Shown here piece by piece: positions 3,544 to 49,951 of a DNA stretch of 64,000 bases. This DNA is from a bacterium (GTDB taxonomy: Bacteria; Zhuqueibacterota; Zhuqueibacteria; Residuimicrobiales; Krinioviventaceae). The notes beneath the pieces were generated by a model, which had not been told where the DNA came from, did no database searches, and saw nothing but the letters and a program-made list of their open reading frames with translations. The stretch spans positions 704,001 through 768,000 of the forward strand of contig CAXXMD010000003.1 of the NCBI GenBank assembly GCA_963675755.2, read 5' to 3'. The translations under genes were made by a program, and so were the position numbers. Positions within the stretch are counted from its first letter, which is position 1. Each line of letters starts with the position of its first letter.

Positions 3544-6500
3544 CTACTTTTGGAACTCTTTGACATATTCTGTAGGCAGTTTGCCAAAATATTTTTTGAA
3601 TGCTTTTGAAAAATAAGAGGGGTCTCTAAAACCCACTTCATAAGTAATTTCTGTAATTGTCATGCCAGATTCTTTTAACAATTGGGCAGAACGTTTTAAG
3701 CGGATGGCATTAATAAAATCTCTTACTGAATGACCGGTCAATACACGGATTTTATTATAAAGTCCGGCACGGCTTGTCCCCATTTTTAAGCTAAATGCGT
3801 TAGAATCAAAATCCGGATCATCCATATGCTGTTCAACAATGTCAATTGCTTTTGCAAGAAACTGTTGATCAACAGAATTGATATTGATTTCTTTGGGTTC
3901 AACCCGAATATCCTGTTGAAACCGGTTCCACAACTGCTTACGTGTTTCAAGAATATTGTGAATACGTAAGGAGAGTTCTTTACTGTCAAAGGGTTTTGCA
4001 AGATAATCATCTGCCCCTGTTTCCAATCCTTCTATCACATGCTGATGTGATGACCTGGCAGTGATCATTATTACCGGTATGTGGCTGGTACGAGGATCCG
4101 TTTTGATTTTTTTGCAAAATTCAATACCACCCATTCGAGGCATCATGATATCTGTTATTATAATATCGGGAAGTTGTTTAATTGTTTTCTCTAAACCGTC
4201 GAACCCATCTATTGCTTCAGTAACAGTATATTGAGTTTCAAGTTCATTACGAATAAAATTACGCATATCGGAATTGTCTTCAACCAGTAATATCTTTACA
4301 TCCGGATTTTCTACCATACTATTCGTGTCATTGTCAAGACTGATCAATAAACCAGATCGATATACTTCCGGTACAATAACTTTAACATTTTTATCTTTAG
4401 CATTATCAATTGAATAAATTGCCGGAATTTCTACTGTAAAAGCTGTGCCCACACCTTTTTCACTTTCTACTGACAATTTTCCCTGTTGTATTTCAACAAG
4501 TTCTTTGGTTAACGCCAAACCAATGCCCGTACCTCCGGCATGGTGATCTGTACCTTCCTGGACCTGGTAAAACCGTTTAAATATTTTGTTCAATTTCTCT
4601 CGGGGAATACCAATGCCGGTATCTTTAACAATGATCTGTAACTTGTCTTTGTATTTTATAGTACCGTGGTTTGGCAATACTTTACGCATTTCTTTATCAC
4701 CGGGAATTTGTGAAACAATGACCTGAACAGATCCCCGCGAATGTGTAAATTTCAATGAATTTGACAGCAGGTTCAACAAAACTTTTTCCAGTTTATCAAA
4801 ATCAAAAAATATTTCCAAATGCTCCAACTGTGTTTTAAACTCCAGTACAAGTTGTTTTTCACCGGCAAGTGATTGGAAAGCATTGGTTACATCACTAATA
4901 AAGACAACAACATCTCCTTTAACCAAATCAAATTCTATCTGACCAGATTCCACCTTTTGAAAATCAAGCACCTGATTTACAAGCCTCATTAAGCGGTTAC
5001 AGTTACGATTCATCATTTCCAATTGAAAGGTAGTGTCAGAATTTCCATTATTTTTTTTACGCAAATTATTTAATGGTCCCAAAATCAATGTCAACGGTGT
5101 TCTCAATTCATGAGAGATATTTGTAAATAATCTTACTTTGGCCTCAGAAAGTTCCTTGATGATTTTGTTACGATGGACAAGATGAAACATGAAAAAGGCA
5201 ATAGTAATAAAAAAGAAAGCAATCAATCCAATAAACCAGGGTTGTTTCCAAACATAGGGGATGATATAGAATTGCACCTTGTCGGGTGAAGGGTCTACAT
5301 TCATATCTCTGTCACGCGATTTGACCAGAAAGGTATGATTTCCATCCTTTAAATTTAAAAAAACCTGATTTATTCTATCACTAAAAGGCGTCCAGTCTTC
5401 ATTGTCCAGCTTGTAAGAATAGAGCAAATTTTCATCCGGCGTTGCTTTCCATGGATCATGGCCCATCCACGATAAAATCACATTACCCGGTTGTGAAATT
5501 TTGTCCTGAGAAAATGTTATAAATGTCTCGGGAGGTAGTTTGTCTGGCTTGTATTGAATTGAAAAGAATTCTCTTGCAGACTTTAGGGGGCTGGTTTCCT
5601 TGTTTATGGCTCTAACCAGCCATTGTTGAGGTATATTATTAAACCATAATGTACCATCCTTTAAAGCACGTAAGGTTATTCCATCTTTATTGATCTTTAT
5701 AAAATGGGGAAAAATATCCAGTGTCCAGCTTCTTCCATCAAAATGACAAATATTCTGATCTGTTGCTACCCACACATTGCTGTCTGAAAGTGCATACATA
5801 CTTATAATTGTATTGCTTGAAAGGCCATCGTTAATGGTATACTGTGACCAGCTTTGAGTTATATAATTATAACTGAAAACACCACAAGTTCTTGTTCCCA
5901 CCCACAGATTACCCTGCTCAGATGTGGATATACAATCATTAAAGCTTTCATCTAACCCAATAGGCTCTGTGATTTTAGTCCACTCATTTATTGCAGGATC
6001 AAAACAGAAAAAGCCCAATTGTCCGCACCAGAGTTTTCCATCACCACTTTGACCAATTCCATATATAGCAGACAGATGAAATCGATCATTAAAGTAAAAA
6101 TACTCACAGTCAAACTCGGTCAATGATCGGCCAAAGCTATATTTAATCAATCCACCAATCTGGCCTTTATCTTCAAGAAAATCTTTACCTGAACCAAACC
6201 AGAGATTGCCTTGCGCATCTTCCAAAACAGCACGATGTCCAATACACCAGGCCAAACGGGGATGGGTTTGTATGTGCCATTTTTCATTATCCAGGTAAGC
6301 GGTTGCTGCCACCTCATTATGGCTGCCGGCTATCCATACCTGCCCCTTGCTGGTAATATACAAGACTACAGGTTCATCCAGCACCCCATCACTTTTATCA
6401 TAACTCGTCCAGTTTTTCATCAAAGGATCAGTTTTAATCACCTGGCCGTCATAAGACAAAAACCATTTACAGCCATCTTTATCAATTGCCTGGAAATGAA

Positions 6501-45343: not shown

Positions 45344-47644
45344 TCAGTCACTTACCGGGGCGCTGATTACACCCAAAAAGCGCCCCATCCAATAGGGCAG
45401 TAAAAAGGTATCGCCAGCAGAAAGTTCGTGATGACGGTCACCGGCATCCAGCGTGAACCAACTGCGGTTGTGCTTGAGTGAGGGACGCTCATCCGGGGGC
45501 AGCACCTCGGCGGTTGTTTGTCCCCAGAAATCCTTTTCAACAAATTCTATGTCTTTGCGGTGACTGTTGATATTGGCAAACTGGATCATATCCAGGGGGA
45601 ATTCTTTTAAAGTCCAGACAGATTCATCCAGATCAAATTCCTTTGCACCGGTCAAGGCGTAACAAAAGTTCCACAACGGGTTCTTTTCGGGACGCTCCAT
45701 CTGCCAGTGGTCTTTTATAGCATCAAAATATTGGGTCTTTAATGTATCGTTAAACGCATAGGGATACAGTCCCCAATACGCCAGAAAATACATCTCGTCA
45801 TCCGAGTGGTTCCACTCTTCCGAAAGCATCCTGCTCCAACCATCCGCATCCTCCGGTGCATGCCCAATCTCTGAGAACGGACGCATCAGGTTTTCCAGAT
45901 ATCCGTATTCATTCATCAACTCGAATGCTTTGTCTTTATAAATATCTTTGCCGGTAAACCGGTATGCGGTTTGCAAAAACGCAACAATATTGGACGAACA
46001 GATTTTGCGGTCGCCAATCATGGTATCAAACCGGTTGACATATTCCGGGTTCCAGCGTCCCCACAGAGACGGCAGACCGTTATAATCGATCAAACACATA
46101 TCATTGGCAACAATATAGCCCATCAGATCATCCAGAATTTTTACAGCGCGGTCCCGCCATTCCGCATCCTCAATATATTCTGCAATGAGGGTCATGGCAA
46201 AAATCTGCCCAATGGTCTGATCACTGCTTGCGGAAGCGCGCCAGTCCCACTCGGGATCGTCAGCATGGCGCCAGCTAATGGTGCCCTGGTATCCGTCATA
46301 CCAGTAATGGTTCACATAATCACGATATTCTTTATGGAAATCCTGATAGCCCCGGCGCTCAAATGAACGACCAAACAATCCCTTGATATTATTAATGGTG
46401 TGAAAGCGCTCAAGCGCTTCAAAGGCCTCGTAAGCATTCTGTTTTGCTTCTTCCGAACCCGTTGACAGGTAACGAAAGATCTGACTGCCCAGGTACATGC
46501 TGGTCCACAGGTTGTCGCTGTCTGCCACCCAGTTCTCGGCAGTGGATAAATTATGGTCATTGAGTCTGGATACATTGACATTCACACCAAACCGGATGTG
46601 ACGTTGACGCACCTGTTTTTCATAAACCATGGCCTTTTCTTCCAGGGTCATTTCTTTAAAACAGATCTGTCCCAATCCCATATCGGTTAAAATGAGTACA
46701 GACCCTTCCGGTCCCGGGGCAATATGGGTAACCGCATCTCCGGGGAGCCAGCGACGACCATAATAATAATTGAATTTACCATCATCACGCAGCATAAACG
46801 CGCCTTTTGTGGATCCAAACCATATCTGCCCATTTACTTCCCGGATTGATGTGAGTTCGGTCCAGGGTAGTTTTTCGTTCAGGTCATTTACAAGCGTTCC
46901 GGAAGCATCCAGCACGTAATACCCGGCATCGCTACCCAGATACACTTTGCCGTTGGTTTGAGAAACATCAAAACAGGCCAATGAACCTTTGCTGTCCTGA
47001 AACACGGATTTTAATTTCTTATCCCCACTGGAATATACAAACAGGGTCTTTTGTGTTAATACCCAGTATTTTTGGTTCAAGGCATCATATTTTAAATCCA
47101 GTACACGATCATCTCGTACCGTGTCGAACCAGAGTTTCATGGAATCATTGATTAGCGCAACGGATTGGCCATCCGAGATCATGAATGTAAAATCTGGCCC
47201 GCCGCAAAGCAATTGCGCGGTTGGCATTTGATGTCTCGAGAATAGTTTTCCGGCCCAGGCATTACTGAAAATGGCCTCGTCATTCAGATAGACAAACTGG
47301 TTTTCATAGACAATCATGTCCTTTACATTCTTGTCCTTCATGGGACGATAACGGCGGTCCTGCTCAAGCGAACCGGGGATTTGAAGATGCCCGTTGTAGG
47401 GATTATAGAGATCGTTCGCGGCCAGCACCTGGATCACTTTATTGCGGTCAGCACCCACTTTGTGCAGTCCCTCGAGCTCTGCAGGATATTTCACTGCATA
47501 ATCCTGCAAATAAGGTACATCCTGATACACCGGCTGTCCGGCCTTGTTGACGGTAGAATCGGTAGATGAACAGGAAAAATTCAATAGAGATAACAGTATT
47601 GGAAAAAGAAAATGGATTTTCATAAGTGCACTCTCTGGATTCAT
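45344..47644 (-). CDS. Lipoprotein with N-terminal beta-propeller and C-terminal (alpha/alpha)-toroid domain, putative glycan-active enzyme
   Basis: Lipobox FSC; propeller-like N-half (IWFGSTKGA); helical C-half with DSDNLWTSMYL, SSDQ, DDEMYFLAY, FLLPYWMGRF. Confidence 0.7.
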   Translation of the reverse strand: MNPESALMKIHFLFPILLSLLNFSCSSTDSTVNKAGQPVYQDVPYLQDYAVKYPAELEGLHKVGADRNKVIQVLAANDLYNPYNGHLQIPGSLEQDRRYRPMKDKNVKDMIVYENQFVYLNDEAIFSNAWAGKLFSRHQMPTAQLLCGGPDFTFMISDGQSVALINDSMKLWFDTVRDDRVLDLKYDALNQKYWVLTQKTLFVYSSGDKKLKSVFQDSKGSLACFDVSQTNGKVYLGSDAGYYVLDASGTLVNDLNEKLPWTELTSIREVNGQIWFGSTKGAFMLRDDGKFNYYYGRRWLPGDAVTHIAPGPEGSVLILTDMGLGQICFKEMTLEEKAMVYEKQVRQRHIRFGVNVNVSRLNDHNLSTAENWVADSDNLWTSMYLGSQIFRYLSTGSEEAKQNAYEAFEALERFHTINNIKGLFGRSFERRGYQDFHKEYRDYVNHYWYDGYQGTISWRHADDPEWDWRASASSDQTIGQIFAMTLIAEYIEDAEWRDRAVKILDDLMGYIVANDMCLIDYNGLPSLWGRWNPEYVNRFDTMIGDRKICSSNIVAFLQTAYRFTGKDIYKDKAFELMNEYGYLENLMRPFSEIGHAPEDADGWSRMLSEEWNHSDDEMYFLAYWGLYPYAFNDTLKTQYFDAIKDHWQMERPEKNPLWNFCYALTGAKEFDLDESVWTLKEFPLDMIQFANINSHRKDIEFVEKDFWGQTTAEVLPPDERPSLKHNRSWFTLDAGDRHHELSAGDTFLLPYWMGRFLGVISAPVSD

Positions 47645-47857
47645 GATAGGATTTCTGGAATTGTTTTGAAATAATACTCATTTTCAACCAGAGAATCAAG
47701 CGTTGGATTGGATTGTGAAATTATTTGAGGGTAAAATGCAAATACGCAAAAACACTTGTAAAATTAAATTTATCATTTTAATGGAATAATTTTTGTTAAG
47801 TTTAGATTAGAAATATAAAAGAACAATAATGATCCATCAACACATATAAAGAAAATC

Positions 47858-47886
47858 TTGACAATTATAAAAATATTGATTACAAT
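47858..47886 (+). promoter_or_regulatory. Near-consensus sigma70 promoter for the structured RNA / NYN gene
   Basis: TTGACA (47858-63), 17-bp spacer, TACAAT (47881-86). Confidence 0.8.
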
Positions 47887-47892
47887 TAATCA

Positions 47893-47985
47893 TATTAGTA
47901 AATAAATAATTTCTATATATTCTCATCCCCCAAGGCATTGTGTCCTTGGGCCCCCCGGGTGTTACGATGCCCGGGGTTTTTATTT
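47893..47985 (+). ncRNA. Putative structured leader/small RNA: two GC-rich hairpins, the second terminator-like
   Basis: Hairpin 1 CCCAAGG(47929-35)/CCTTGGG(47944-50). Hairpin 2 CCCCGGGTGT-TACG-ATGCCCGGGG (47953-76, two G-U pairs) followed by TTTTTATTT. GC island in very AT-rich DNA. The 5' end is inferred from the promoter. Confidence 0.55.
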
Positions 47986-47996
47986 GGGGGCATTTC

Positions 47997-48641
47997 TTGA
48001 AAACCAATTTCCTAATTGACGGCTTTAATTTATATCATTCATTGAACGATGCCAGTAAAGATTTTGGATTAAACGGCAAGGGTATTAAATGGTTAGATAT
48101 AAAAATGTTATGTGAATCTTATTTACATCTTGTTGATAAAAATGCACAAATAAACAATATTTATTATTTTACTGCTTTGGCCAATTATTTAATAAGATTT
48201 AAGCCCCTTAAAGTAGAAAAACATAAAAAATACATTAAAGCCTTAAATTCTACAGGTGTAATTGATTGTAGAGGGAATTTCAAGAAAAAAACCGTATCAT
48301 ACAAAAACCATGCTGTTGATTTAAAATTCTTTAGTCATGAAGAAAAAGAAACAGATGTTGCAATATCCATAAAAATATTGGAAAATTTTATTAAAAACGA
48401 ATGTGATGTTCAAGTTATTATAACCGGAGATACAGATATTGCTCCTGCAATTCGACTTGCAAAAGAATTGTTCACTAATAAATTATTAATTGCCGGTTTT
48501 CCATACAAAAGAAAAAACAAAGAACTCGCAAAATTGGTTGATAAATCATTTTCCATTTCTAAAGAACAATATCTGAAATACCAATTACCCCACATTATAA
48601 ATGTAAATAATAAAAACATCACAAAACCTGAAAACTGGTAA
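47997..48641 (+). CDS. NYN domain (LabA/DUF88, PIN-fold) ribonuclease
   Basis: Start TTG 47997 after GGGGG. FLIDGFNLYH, IYYFTA, EEKETDVAI, ITGDTDIAPAI carry the conserved acidic residues; C-terminal YQLP..I.KPENW. Confidence 0.92.
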   Translation: MKTNFLIDGFNLYHSLNDASKDFGLNGKGIKWLDIKMLCESYLHLVDKNAQINNIYYFTALANYLIRFKPLKVEKHKKYIKALNSTGVIDCRGNFKKKTVSYKNHAVDLKFFSHEEKETDVAISIKILENFIKNECDVQVIITGDTDIAPAIRLAKELFTNKLLIAGFPYKRKNKELAKLVDKSFSISKEQYLKYQLPHIINVNNKNITKPENW

Positions 48642-48655
48642 ATAAAATACCAAAA

Positions 48656-49951
48656 TTACCGCATCAACACCAATTTTCGGGTTTCGCTAAATCCTCCAGC
48701 CCTCAACCGGTAAAAATAAACACCGGAAGCGAGTTGGTCTGATGATAAAGTTATTTGATAATTACCGGGGGTTTTTTTCTCATTGACCAACTGCTTAACC
48801 AGCTTGCCATTCACATCATATACACTCAATTTTACATGTGCCTGCCCTTGTAGCGCGTATTCAACAACCGTACTGCTGTTAAAAGGATTGGGATAATTTT
48901 GTTTTAACTTGAAAATTTCCGGTTGTTTGATATCTGGTTCTGTTATTTCTGTTACAGGATTATAACAAAACAATCCATTCCCCGTGCCTAAAAAGAGTTT
49001 TTGATAATATTTTGAATACAATAAGGGCAAATTTCTAAAACCACCTTCAAAAGCGTCATTATTGCCACCAACTTTATTCCAGCCAACTTTATTCATTTGC
49101 CTATTGTATACATTAATCTCTGTAGCAGGGAACATGTGCTTACTTATAAACAACAAAGAATCTGTTGCAAAGACGCTGGAAACAGAAGCTTTTTCAGGCA
49201 AACCTGTGTTTTCCTGTTCCCAGGTTATCCCCCCATCTCGGGAGATAAAGAATCCTTCCAGTTGAAAACAAATGATACAAGTAAAAGATGAATCTGTTTT
49301 AATGAATTTCAGATCTCGTATCGTATTGGCTAACGGTTGCTGCCAGGGTTCCCAGGTTTCACCAAAATCCAGACTTTTGTAGATCATATCCGACCTCGCG
49401 TCCGCAGCATATAAAGTCCTTTGATCAGGTCCGGTTTCAAGTACTTGTATCCTCATTGTGGAATCCAGCTTGGTCCATGATAATCCACCATCAAAACTTT
49501 TATACAGAGCAGACTTGGGAAGAAGCCAGTCATAATACTTGGCAGCCAATAACACCTGTGGATGAAGCGGATCGATGCGGACAAGCTCAAGATCATTATT
49601 CCAGCCATTTAATACGATTCCCGAATCAGATGTTACCCAGGATTTTCCGTGGTCAGTTGATTTGTATAAATGGTTGTAACAGGCTACATACAGTGTATCC
49701 GGATTCGTTGGATGAAAAACCATATCAACTACAGCATAATTTTCAAGTATGGAATCCCATGTGTTCCCCCCATCTGAGCTCTTGTAAAGTCCTCCATAAT
49801 TTTCATCAGTAACACATCCGGCCAAAAGTATACTACTGTCTGCAGGATCAGTTTTGATAAAACTGACCATTGTCCCCTGCATACCAACAGGCTCCCACTC
49901 TCCAGCTAATAGTAAACAAGGTAATAGTATAAAATAGAAAATTTTTCGCAT
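48656..49951 (-). CDS. Secreted BNR/Asp-box (VPS10-like) propeller protein with FlgD/T9SS-A-like sorting domain
   Basis: Five SxDxGxTW repeats; LKQNYPNPFNSST..LASGVYFYRL..RKLVLMR. Confidence 0.88.
   Translation of the reverse strand: MRKIFYFILLPCLLLAGEWEPVGMQGTMVSFIKTDPADSSILLAGCVTDENYGGLYKSSDGGNTWDSILENYAVVDMVFHPTNPDTLYVACYNHLYKSTDHGKSWVTSDSGIVLNGWNNDLELVRIDPLHPQVLLAAKYYDWLLPKSALYKSFDGGLSWTKLDSTMRIQVLETGPDQRTLYAADARSDMIYKSLDFGETWEPWQQPLANTIRDLKFIKTDSSFTCIICFQLEGFFISRDGGITWEQENTGLPEKASVSSVFATDSLLFISKHMFPATEINVYNRQMNKVGWNKVGGNNDAFEGGFRNLPLLYSKYYQKLFLGTGNGLFCYNPVTEITEPDIKQPEIFKLKQNYPNPFNSSTVVEYALQGQAHVKLSVYDVNGKLVKQLVNEKKTPGNYQITLSSDQLASGVYFYRLRAGGFSETRKLVLMR

What the first reader, a model, noticed from the sequence alone, without database searches (positions are those of the whole stretch)
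47858..48641. Stand-alone NYN/PIN ribonuclease with its own promoter-driven, terminated structured RNA: candidate RNA-antitoxin / anti-phage module
Seen: a near-consensus promoter (TTGACA-17-TACAAT), ~35 nt of A/T-rich leader, then a GC-rich island folding into two hairpins. The second has a UACG loop, G-U pairs and a U-tract. A TTG-started NYN gene with intact acidic catalytic motifs follows. The unit is AT-rich and sits between unrelated glycan and secreted-protein genes. Established: promoter / short structured RNA / terminator / ribonuclease is the layout of type III toxin-antitoxin systems (ToxIN, TenpIN, CptIN) and of AbiF-type HEPN nucleases with upstream RNAs, and NYN is a PIN-fold RNase. 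Inference: this may be an equivalent RNA-regulated system built on a NYN nuclease, where an abundant ~90-nt RNA binds or is cut by the protein. I do not know of such a system being characterised.
Basis: partly seen in the sequence, partly recalled or inferred. Interest (0 to 1): 0.8.

Follow-up and report, generated by a model that had tools for sequence, protein, structure and literature searches.

The report
Conserved small RNA partnered with NYN ribonuclease
A short two-hairpin RNA with its own promoter and terminator sits in front of this ribonuclease gene in many bacterial phyla, which points to an undescribed RNA-plus-nuclease module that resembles RNA-antitoxin systems.

Summary
Window 47858-48641 has a near-consensus promoter, two GC-rich hairpins (the second UACG-capped and followed by a U-run) and a 214-aa NYN gene that starts at TTG 47997.

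The single sequence is not convincing alone. The comparison with relatives is. A covariance model built here found one copy of the RNA in 157 of 161 loci that encode close homologues. The other 4 lack enough upstream DNA. All 14 modelled base pairs show compensatory changes and 98% of cells are paired.

Rfam 15 has no such family, and my literature searches found none. Most loci have a host-type promoter that places the start at a conserved UCAUCC tail.

The protein belongs to PADLOC candidate family HEC-09, whose one tested member gave no phage defence. No neighbouring gene is conserved, and a same-genus genome has other cargo at this spot.

Three observations favour a trans-acting partner RNA over a mere leader:
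- two loci keep the RNA on the other strand;
- one locus has two tandem copies;
- distant homologues on small enterobacterial plasmids carry a 33-nt x 3.8 repeat array plus terminator.

Binding, toxicity and defence are untested. Earlier AI notes of this scan saw "NYN leader hairpins" on other DNA.

The parts
47677..48656 (.). Whole window-specific segment (indel) that carries the cassette
   Evidence: The same-genus genome G052 matches the window up to 47676 (93% identity) and again from about 48655-48657 (97%). Between these points it holds a different 1.2-kb insert with a TonB_C-domain ORF. GC is 0.25-0.33 here.
47858..47886 (+). Sigma-70-type promoter, TTGACA-17-TACAAT
   Evidence: 11 of 12 matches. 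In relatives a promoter with at least 9 of 12 matches lies within 70 nt upstream of the RNA in 62 of 80 loci, against 19 of 800 random 70-mers.
47887..47921 (+). AU-rich extra 5' leader, specific to this window
   Evidence: In 53 of the 62 loci with a good promoter the -10 box ends 5-10 nt before the RNA. Here the distance is 35 nt.
47922..47928 (+). Conserved single-stranded 5' tail (consensus R-U-C-A-U-C-C)
   Evidence: U2, C3 and C6 are invariant or nearly so in 79 distinct sequences. The tail is unpaired in the fold.
47929..47950 (+). Hairpin 1, with a variable loop
   Evidence: All 5 modelled pairs show changes on both sides, and 94.6% of cells are paired. Fold.
47953..47976 (+). Hairpin 2: a 10-bp GC-rich stem capped by a UACG tetraloop; intrinsic-terminator stem
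   Evidence: All 9 modelled pairs show changes on both sides, and 99.9% of cells are paired. The loop C and G are invariant. Scored as terminator-like.
47977..47984 (+). U-run of the terminator
   Evidence: The columns after the stem are U in most of the 79 sequences.
47985..47996 (+). Short spacer with a G-run (47986-47990) 6 nt before the start codon
   Evidence: Read. Across 77 loci the spacer is 5-53 nt, median 20, which is too short for a separate promoter.
47997..48641 (+). NYN (PIN-like) ribonuclease gene, 214 aa, TTG start; PADLOC family HEC-09
   Evidence: Pfam NYN. HEC-09 E 1.8e-39 over the full length. AlphaFold2 model with pLDDT 94; nearest solved folds are 2qip and the MARF1 NYN domain. 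Catalytic acidic residues are invariant.

Best explanation
This is a compact, self-contained, horizontally moving two-part cassette of at most 980 bp. It holds a small non-coding RNA gene and, directly behind its terminator, an NYN (PIN-like, metal-dependent) endoribonuclease gene.

A strong promoter makes a short RNA: about 63-70 nt in most relatives and about 92 nt here. The RNA consists of a single-stranded C-rich 5' tail (UCAUCC), hairpin 1, a CC linker and hairpin 2. Hairpin 2, with its UNCG tetraloop and U-run, is an efficient intrinsic terminator.

The spacer before the start codon is too short for another promoter. The nuclease can therefore only be transcribed by read-through, and it often lacks a free ribosome-binding site. 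The result would be much RNA and little protein.

I propose that the RNA is the dedicated partner of the nuclease. The tail plus hairpin 1 would occupy the enzyme as a pseudo-substrate and keep it inactive. This is what RNA antitoxins do in type III toxin-antitoxin systems and what RCd22 does for AbiF. Loss of RNA supply, through phage shut-off of host transcription or loss of the cassette, would free the nuclease.

Shown: the RNA exists as a conserved, covarying structure that is genetically locked to the gene.

Inferred: the transcript ends, read-through control, binding, inhibition, toxicity and any defence or addiction role.
For: 1. Linkage. Model R1 finds exactly one strong match (42-82 bits) in 80 of 81 sources (the window plus 80 genome loci) and in 77 of 80 metagenome loci. 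The 4 sources without a match have at most 45 nt of upstream DNA. The loci come from more than 15 phyla (record titles).

2. Structure.
- On a sequence-only MAFFT alignment of 77 sequences, all 14 predicted pairs have compensatory changes.
- On the model-fitted alignment, 98.0% of cells pair and 204 cells changed on both sides, reached by 0 of 500 shuffles. Slid controls give 26-54% paired.

3. Specificity.
- One hit in the 6.48-Mb own genome.
- Two of 151 genomes of the phylum have the RNA, and both also carry the close NYN gene.

4. Own transcription unit.
- A promoter with at least 9 of 12 matches lies upstream in 62 of 80 loci, against 19 of 800 controls. Its -10 box ends 5-10 nt before the tail in 53 of those 62.
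- The Bacteroidota loci L005 and L075 show a TAnnTTTG-type box instead (read; the motif itself is recalled).

5. Terminator in front of the gene. It is seen in 115 of 135 HEC-09-family genes, against 22 of 519 control ORFs. The spacer median is 20 nt. An accessible SD-like motif is present in only 20 of 77 loci.

6. Hints of action in trans.
- In L020 the RNA has its own TTGACA promoter and is convergent, just 3' of the gene.
- In L044 it is divergent, with an ORF between it and the gene.
- L222 has two tandem copies, the first without a U-run.
- A 28%-identical homologue on 4.5-kb Klebsiella, E. coli and Salmonella plasmids has a promoter, a 33-nt x 3.8 repeat array, a terminator and then the gene.
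- Other distant HEC-09 clades keep the order tail, hairpin, terminator.

7. The cassette is one unit.
- No neighbour is conserved: 324 neighbouring ORFs fall into 300 clusters.
- There is an indel relative to G052.
- L030 and L048 have direct repeats of 96 and 35 nt that bracket the promoter, RNA and gene.

8. Precedent. AbiF/RCd22 is an upstream ncRNA that neutralises a nuclease toxin in cis and in trans (abstract of PMC12373285).
Against: - There are no expression data. No RNA run holds this stretch.
- RNA-protein binding, cleavage and toxicity were not tested and cannot be tested with these tools.
- In 155 of 157 loci the RNA lies in the 5' leader of the gene, which a purely cis-acting element would explain equally well. 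The trans argument rests on 2 rearranged loci, 1 tandem duplication and arrays in distant relatives.
- The one HEC-09 representative tested in E. coli, cloned with about 150 bp of native upstream DNA, gave no defence. It was not among the constructs reported as toxic (passages only). I could not see Table S2, so I do not know whether that construct carried an RNA of this kind.
- Most of hairpin 2's conserved features (UNCG loop, GC stem, U-run) are what any strong terminator needs. They do not by themselves indicate protein recognition.
- Only some loci lie near defence genes. For example, 7 of 142 neighbouring ORFs have a ResIII domain. The window's own neighbours are a protein with no Pfam hit and a secreted BNR/T9SS protein.
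Confidence: 0.5

Rival explanations
1. The element is a purely cis-acting leader. It would be a transcription attenuator or an autoregulatory 5' UTR through which the nuclease limits its own synthesis, as recalled for the rne and rnc leaders of E. coli. The terminated short RNA would be a by-product with no function of its own.
For: - The RNA lies in the 5' leader, on the same strand and directly upstream, in 155 of 157 loci.
- The terminator ends 5-53 nt before the start codon. In 21 of 77 loci the only SD-like motif lies inside the 3' arm of hairpin 2, so the hairpin could also mask translation.
- Earlier AI notes of this scan read similar hairpins this way. Those notes are unchecked and are not independent evidence.
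Against: - No alternative (antiterminator) pairing shows up. Both hairpins are supported in every sequence, and a scan for further covarying column pairs found only the two helices.
- A near-consensus promoter feeding a very strong terminator is wasteful for simple autoregulation.
- L020 and L044 keep an intact RNA gene, with promoter and terminator, outside the NYN leader.
- Tandem copies (L222) and a 3.8-unit array (L085) are hard to explain as attenuators.
Confidence: 0.28
2. The RNA is a base-pairing small RNA or a fixed guide. Its C-rich 5' tail would pair with G-rich targets, such as ribosome-binding sites of host or phage mRNAs, and would recruit or direct the NYN nuclease to them.
For: - The build is that of a classical trans-acting sRNA: a single-stranded conserved 5' end, a hairpin, and a terminator with a U-tail.
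- The tail is the most sequence-conserved unpaired part.
- Its consensus resembles the C-rich 3' end of 16S rRNA. That comparison is made from memory and was not tested.
Against: - Only 3 of the 7 tail positions are invariant, and the others vary. That fits protein recognition better than a fixed seed.
- No conserved complementary site was seen in the NYN translation start regions (read).
- No target search was possible.
Confidence: 0.1
3. The hairpins serve the DNA, not the RNA. They would be a recombination or insertion signal of a small selfish cassette that happens to carry a nuclease gene.
For: - The cassette behaves as a mobile unit. There is an indel relative to G052.
- Direct repeats of 96 and 35 nt bracket it in L030 and L048.
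- Its distribution is sporadic: 2 of 151 genomes of the phylum.
- Homologues sit on plasmids and on viral contigs.
Against: - The flanking repeats lie outside the promoter. They do not coincide with the hairpins.
- G-U pairs are frequent in the stems: 44 G-U against 31 G-C at one pair of hairpin 2. These work in RNA of this strand only.
- A promoter is positioned to start transcription at the tail, and a U-run follows on one strand only.
Confidence: 0.05
4. It is a chance or generic feature: an ordinary terminator or GC-rich hairpin that happens to lie before this gene.
For: Single-sequence statistics are weak. Two terminator-like sites were found where 1.8 are expected, and z = -0.88 for the 108-nt stretch.
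Against: - 157 of 161 homologous loci carry the same element with compensatory changes.
- Control ORFs show a terminator before the start in 22 of 519 cases, against 115 of 135 for this family.
Confidence: 0.02

Closest known systems
Type III toxin-antitoxin systems (ToxIN, CptIN, TenpIN)
   Same: One promoter, a short non-coding RNA, a Rho-independent terminator, then an endoribonuclease gene. This gives an excess of RNA over protein. The cassettes are compact, occur on plasmids, phage-like contigs and chromosomes, and are spread by horizontal transfer. A distant HEC-09 homologue on small enterobacterial plasmids even has a 33-nt x 3.8 tandem array. The definition is taken from the abstract of PMC3401426.
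   Different: The nuclease has an NYN/PIN-like fold, not the ToxN/AbiQ type. That the known toxins share the ToxN type is recalled; the NYN fold is. In the window and in 156 close relatives the RNA is a single two-hairpin unit, not a repeat array, and its ends would be set by the promoter and terminator and not by toxin processing. Pseudoknot formation, processing and neutralisation are untested.
AbiF (Abi_2, HEPN) with the upstream ncRNA RCd22 / abiF RNA motif of Clostridioides difficile
   Same: A structured, non-repetitive ncRNA sits directly upstream of a nuclease-type toxin gene. It lowers expression in cis and neutralises the protein in trans by direct binding (abstract of PMC12373285). 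This is the nearest working model.
   Different: The protein fold is unrelated (HEPN against NYN) and so is the RNA. The Rfam 15 search, whose library I recall as including the abiF motif, gave nothing at this RNA. Function is shown there and only inferred here.
PADLOC candidate system HEC-09 (Hma-embedded candidate 9; preprint 10.1101/2024.01.29.577857)
   Same: Same protein family. The window protein matches the HEC-09 profile over its full length (E 1.8e-39), and so do 8 of 8 distant homologues tested. The preprint also describes an NYN fold like MARF1 with conserved aspartates (passages).
   Different: The preprint treats it as a single-protein candidate. Its main text holds no occurrence of 'non-coding' or 'ncRNA'. 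The tested member gave no defence. The window copy is not embedded in an Hma system. The partner RNA is the new element.
Autoregulatory 5' leaders of ribonuclease genes (E. coli rne, rnc, pnp; recalled, no paper read)
   Same: A structured RNA in the leader of a ribonuclease gene could be bound or cut by the gene's own product.
   Different: As I recall them, those leaders have no strong intrinsic terminator that ends most transcripts before the gene. They are not mobile cassettes and are not found detached from their gene or in tandem arrays.
LabA/MARF1-type NYN domains (Pfam PF01936; PDB 2qip, 5yaa, 6fdl)
   Same: The fold and the acidic active site. The best Foldseek matches are 2qip (E 1.2e-6, TM 0.73 on the target) and the MARF1 NYN domain (TM 0.68-0.73).
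   Different: Sequence identity is only 9-14%. This family adds a long beta-hairpin (residues 88-117, with invariant F95 and K96) and a C-terminal extension that ends in an invariant Trp. I know of no partner RNA described for those proteins.

Membership tests
Type III toxin-antitoxin systems | The toxin is an endoribonuclease of one of the three known toxin families (ToxN, CptN, TenpN) | tested here: not met
   The only Pfam hit is NYN PF01936. The only PADLOC hit is HEC-09. The nearest folds are 2qip and the MARF1 NYN domain.
Type III toxin-antitoxin systems | [quoted passage not shown] | tested here: not met
   There is no tandem repeat in window 47500-48800, and the RNA is present as a single copy. 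Among relatives, L222 has 2 tandem copies and the distant plasmid homologue L085 has a 33-nt x 3.8 array.
Type III toxin-antitoxin systems | A Rho-independent terminator lies between the RNA and the toxin gene, with one promoter upstream | tested here: met
   These are sequence predictions only: promoter 47858-47886 and terminator 47953-47984. The same layout is seen in relatives.
Type III toxin-antitoxin systems | The protein is toxic and is neutralised by direct binding of the RNA, which the toxin processes | not testable with these tools
   Needs expression, co-purification and cleavage assays.
PADLOC HEC-09 / Pfam NYN | Significant full-length match to the family profile | tested here: met
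   HEC-09 E 1.8e-39, residues 6-214 on profile positions 7-202 of 203. NYN scores 31 bits against a cut-off of 24.2.
PADLOC HEC-09 / Pfam NYN | Conserved acidic metal-binding residues of the NYN/PIN active site | tested here: met
   D8, E115, E116, E118, D120, D145 and D147 are invariant in 31 sequences. Their assignment to the active site follows the preprint's comparison with MARF1 and was not modelled residue by residue.
PADLOC HEC-09 / Pfam NYN | Embedded in, or next to, a defence system (the basis on which HEC-09 was proposed) | tested here: not met
   The window's neighbours are a 766-aa protein with no Pfam hit and a BNR/Sortilin protein with a T9SS tail. Among 142 neighbouring ORFs of relatives, 7 have ResIII, 4 match type III REase, 3 match PglX and 3 match DrmMI. 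Some loci therefore lie in defence islands, but most do not.
Any Rfam 15 RNA family (including the abiF motif) | Match to a curated covariance model at or near its gathering score | tested here: not met
   In the window the best overlap is anti-hemB at 17.7 bits against a gathering score of 49.5, E 0.58. No hit with E <= 1 falls on the RNA in the 8 best-scoring loci.
Autoregulatory ribonuclease leaders | The leader is cut or bound by the product of its own gene, lowering its expression | not testable with these tools
   Only position is known: the RNA is in the leader in 155 of 157 loci.

The most novel reading that the evidence does not exclude
HEC-09-type NYN nucleases together with their upstream RNAs form a large, unrecognised class of RNA-protein toxin-antitoxin-like modules. 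It would be built on a PIN-like fold and, in most members, on a single non-repetitive two-hairpin RNA whose ends are set by a promoter and a terminator and need no toxin processing. The class would span more than 15 phyla, plasmids and phage-like contigs. It would range from single units through duplications to true repeat arrays, showing how type III-style arrays may arise. It might also explain why the protein tested as a single-gene system showed no phenotype.
Probability: 0.45. Interest if true: 0.85.

Novelty: new variant of a known kind. Interest (0 to 1): 0.8.

Why it matters
If the RNA is the nuclease's partner, this adds a new and widespread family to the few known RNA-antitoxin systems. 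It would use an unrelated nuclease fold and a simpler RNA.

- Size of the protein family: 1008 clusters at 50% identity with E <= 1e-10.
- Reach: hundreds of species genomes.

It gives a concrete, testable reason to look again at a catalogued candidate defence gene (HEC-09) that showed no activity. It supplies a well-supported new structured-RNA family for Rfam. It also offers tractable models, because relatives with repeat arrays sit on 4.5-kb E. coli plasmids.

Even under the rival cis-only reading, it is a new and strongly conserved regulatory RNA of a ribonuclease gene.

Tried and rejected
- RNA-seq: the look-up of sequencing runs (kind rna) listed no RNA holder for window 47700-48800. It listed two runs of unknown kind from one study, kept as contigs.
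- Rfam: nothing at the RNA in the window or in 8 loci.
- Literature:
  - 'NYN domain' + 'type III toxin-antitoxin': 0 papers.
  - 'NYN' + 'structured RNAs' + 'covariation': 0 papers.
  - 'NYN' / 'RNA antitoxin' / 'tandem repeats' and 'NYN' / 'abortive infection' / 'noncoding RNA', at least 2 terms each: the listed titles held nothing on an NYN-associated RNA.
  - Subscription journals are not covered.
- Model R1 on four distant homologues (E. coli and Klebsiella small plasmids, a Methylobacterium plasmid, a Mycobacterium prophage): no significant hit, best E 0.086. Their upstream RNAs, where present, are too diverged for this model.
- Conserved neighbour genes: none.
- Extra copies of the leader DNA or the gene in the own genome: none.
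- Tertiary or alternative pairings in the RNA alignment: none beyond the two helices.
- Flanking direct repeats in the window: only a 29-nt, 72% match with a 9-nt exact core. That is within the range of control pairs, and blastn-short found nothing.
- Orphan RNAs: a pattern scan of viral contigs gave 4 stretches. One is a true match (57.8 bits, L231) with no NYN gene in the stored locus, and the other 3 are not the RNA.
- The in-frame GTG 47940 and ATG 47967 starts are rejected, because homologues start at the position of TTG 47997 and relatives have no ATG in hairpin 2.
- I did not run complex prediction. It does not take RNA, and I make no protein-protein claim.
Full report
**1. The observation**

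Window 47858-47886 holds TTGACA-17-TACAAT, 11 of 12 matches and the best promoter-like site in 47000-49500.
- After an AU-rich stretch come two GC-rich hairpins, at 47929-47950 and 47953-47976.
- The second has 10 pairs, a UACG loop and a following T-run.
- An open frame with a Pfam NYN domain follows (31 bits, cut-off 24.2).

Three in-frame starts exist (GTG 47940, ATG 47967, TTG 47997). Homologues are 211-216 aa and begin at the position of the TTG, so the gene is 47997-48641 and the protein 214 aa.

The segment has a GC content of 0.25-0.33, against about 0.45-0.55 around it.

Taken alone, the sequence is not remarkable.
- Promoter-like sites: 17 found, 11.1 +/- 3.4 expected.
- Terminator-like sites: 2 found, 1.8 +/- 1.4 expected.
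- The 108-nt stretch folds no better than shuffles (z = -0.88).
- The 63-nt core does fold better (z = -3.46, 0 of 200 shuffles).

**2. The protein**

It matches the PADLOC profile HEC-09 over its full length (E 1.8e-39).

HEC-09 is one of nine "Hma-embedded candidates" of preprint 10.1101/2024.01.29.577857. In the passages I read it is described as an NYN protein like MARF1 with three conserved aspartates. [quoted passage not shown] The candidates were cloned with about 150 bp of native upstream DNA plus an inducible promoter. The main text never uses 'non-coding' or 'ncRNA'.

An AlphaFold2 model built on 31 homologues is confident (pLDDT 94, pTM 0.88).
- Its nearest solved folds are the LabA-like NYN protein 2qip and the MARF1 NYN domain.
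- It has an added long beta-hairpin (residues 88-117) and a C-terminal extension.
- The acidic residues and a C-terminal K-P-x-x-W are invariant.

The family is of moderate size. Of 1.84 billion cluster representatives, 2740 match at E <= 1e-3, 1008 at E <= 1e-10 and 95 at E <= 1e-30.

**3. The RNA is conserved**

I fetched 80 loci from species genomes (557 of 592 pattern matches encode a relative, and the best 80 were kept). I then looked upstream of each gene.

A simple scan found a terminator-like hairpin in 77 of the 79 sources with at least 150 nt of upstream DNA. In 76 of them it is visibly the same element: a 9-10-bp GC-rich stem whose sequence differs between loci, a U(A/G)CG loop and a T-run.

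Printing the regions in register showed that the whole unit is shared. In order it has:
- a promoter;
- a single-stranded tail (consensus AUCAUCC);
- hairpin 1 with a variable loop;
- CC;
- hairpin 2;
- a U-run;
- 5-53 nt of spacer;
- the start codon.

On a sequence-only MAFFT alignment of 77 sequences, RNAalifold predicts 14 pairs, and every one has sequences in which both sides changed.

I built covariance model R1 from 71 of the 77 sequences. I left out L028, L052, L055, L062, L066 and L078 because hairpin 1 is atypical in them. All six were later found by the model.

Searching the window plus the 80 loci (616 kb, both strands) gave exactly one strong match (42.7-82.1 bits) in 80 of 81 sources. 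L081 has only a few bases upstream.

On the alignment of these 80 (which is fitted to the model and so leans towards it):
- 98.0% of cells pair;
- all 14 pairs have changes on both sides;
- 204 cells changed on both sides;
- 0 of 500 shuffles reach any of the measures;
- sliding the partner by 1-3 columns gives 26-54% paired.

An independent set of 80 metagenome loci gave a match directly upstream on the same strand in 77. The other three (L171, L188, L202) have fewer than 45 nt of upstream DNA.

Specificity is high. There is one hit in the 6.48-Mb own genome. In 151 genomes of the phylum there are two hits, both in genomes that also hold the close NYN gene.

Rfam 15 has nothing at this RNA in the window or in the eight best loci.

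**4. It looks like its own transcription unit**

A sigma-70-type promoter with at least 9 of 12 matches lies within 70 nt upstream of the RNA in 62 of 80 loci, against 19 of 800 random 70-mers from the same loci. In 53 of those 62 the -10 box ends 5-10 nt before the tail.

Two Bacteroidota loci (L005, L075) instead show a box of the TAnnTTTG kind just upstream (read; the motif is recalled).

The window is an outlier. Its -10 box ends 35 nt before the tail, so its RNA would be about 92 nt and not about 65 nt.

The tail positions U2, C3 and C6 and the loop C and G are invariant or nearly so.

Because the spacer is short (median 20 nt), the gene has no room for a promoter of its own. An accessible SD-like motif is present in only 20 of 77 loci, lies only inside the 3' arm of hairpin 2 in 21, straddles the arm's end in 1, and is absent in 35.

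I infer that the nuclease is made only by terminator read-through and at a low level.

**5. Leader or partner?**

In 155 of 157 loci the RNA is in the gene's leader, so a cis-only role cannot be excluded. Several observations point to a function of the RNA as such.
- In L020 the RNA has a TTGACA promoter of its own and lies on the opposite strand just 3' of the gene. There the gene follows a histidine-kinase gene.
- In L044 the RNA is divergent and separated from the gene by a 197-aa ORF.
- L222 has two tandem copies, and the first has lost its U-run.
- The association reaches far into the family. R1 finds the RNA upstream in 22 of 55 IMG/VR loci at E <= 0.1 (19 of them at E <= 2.8e-5), including proteins only 27-29% identical.
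- Many loci that the model misses still show a tail, a hairpin and a terminator. Examples are a Methylobacterium plasmid, a Klebsiella IncR plasmid and a Xanthomonas plasmid.
- Overall, 115 of 135 family genes have a terminator-like hairpin ending within 70 nt of the start, against 22 of 519 other ORFs in the same loci.
- All eight distant homologues I tested are HEC-09 by PADLOC.
- A 28%-identical homologue on a 4.5-kb Klebsiella plasmid has a promoter-like site, a 33-nt x 3.8 tandem array, a terminator and then the gene. I read each array unit as a C-rich stretch plus a hairpin.
- 17 plasmid records from E. coli, Salmonella and Klebsiella carry that unit at 95-100% identity.
- The nearest demonstrated analogue with a non-repetitive RNA is AbiF/RCd22 (abstract of PMC12373285).

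**6. The cassette moves as one piece**

The 324 ORFs within three genes of the NYN gene in 74 loci fall into 300 clusters. The only recurrences are syntenic close relatives.

Of 142 flanking ORFs, 7 carry ResIII and a few match PglX, DrmMI or type IIG/III restriction enzymes. Some copies therefore sit in defence islands, but most, including this one, do not.

A same-genus genome (G052, 100% complete) has both flanks at 93-97% identity. In place of window 47677-48656 it has a different 1.2-kb insert that encodes a TonB_C protein.

In L030 and L048 direct repeats of 96 nt (96.9% identical) and 35 nt (exact) bracket the promoter, RNA and gene. The other 72 loci, and the window, show nothing beyond controls.

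Homologues occur on 351 plasmid records and 3 phage records, all below 60% identity.

**7. Verdict**

The RNA family and its lock to HEC-09-type NYN genes are established by these computations. How it works is not.

I put about 0.5 on a partner-RNA (type III-like, RCd22-like) mechanism, about 0.28 on a cis-only leader, and the rest on the other readings.

It fails membership of the known type III families on toxin fold and, in this clade, on repeat structure. I therefore file it as a new variant of that kind and not as a member.

No RNA-seq run was available. My literature searches found no description, but subscription journals are not covered.

Earlier AI notes of this scan had already flagged "NYN leader hairpins absent from Rfam" on other genomes. 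They are leads, not evidence. My data agree with them on the RNA and add to them on tandem copies and on target duplication.

Noticed in passing
L085:917-1119 (Klebsiella quasipneumoniae 4.5-kb plasmid); 17 related plasmid records: A 28%-identical HEC-09 homologue is preceded by a 33-nt x 3.8 tandem repeat array and a terminator, the classic type III toxin-antitoxin layout. Two records (H41, H42) span about 30 nt more than the query, which may mean one extra repeat.
   Followed up: partly
L030:3767-3862 and 4649-4744; L048:3827-3861 and 4645-4679: Long direct repeats (96 nt at 96.9% identity; 35 nt exact) bracket the promoter-RNA-NYN cassette. This looks like a target duplication, yet the cassette has no integrase. 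The insertion mechanism is unknown.
   Followed up: partly
L144:3349-4559 (same-genus genome G052): At the spot where the window has the RNA-NYN cassette, the sister genome has a different AT-rich 1.2-kb insert that encodes a 273-aa TonB_C-domain protein. The intergenic spot is a variable cargo site.
   Followed up: partly
L231:9223-9289: A true copy of the RNA (57.8 bits) lies on a viral contig with no NYN homologue in the stored 9.8-kb locus. It lacks the U-run and is followed by a 120-aa ORF. It may be an orphan or a remnant.
   Followed up: partly
L026:4826-4870 (-): An Acido-Lenti-1 RNA (RF01687, 38.6 bits, gathering score 37) lies about 350 nt downstream of the NYN gene in a Bacteroidetes MAG.
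   Followed up: no
L046:4941-5106 (-), L008:5537-5609 (-): tRNA genes lie shortly downstream of the cassette in two loci. This is compatible with insertion near tRNA genes.
   Followed up: no
Plasmid records H50, H52, H56, H58, H69: Several plasmid homologues of this NYN family are annotated as '6-hydroxy-3-succinoylpyridine 3-monooxygenase HspA' or 'nicB'. This looks like a propagated misannotation of an NYN-domain protein.
   Followed up: no
window 45344-47644 (-): The 766-aa protein upstream has no Pfam family at E <= 0.01. The downstream 431-aa protein (48656-49951, minus strand) has Sortilin/BNR repeats and a type IX secretion tail.
   Followed up: no
L084:2262-2582 (E. coli 3.5-kb ColE1-like plasmid): A 35%-identical homologue (241 aa) sits on a plasmid with only Rop, MobA and an HTH gene. 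Its 320-nt upstream region holds several long hairpins and a terminator 22 nt before the start. R1 does not match it.
   Followed up: partly
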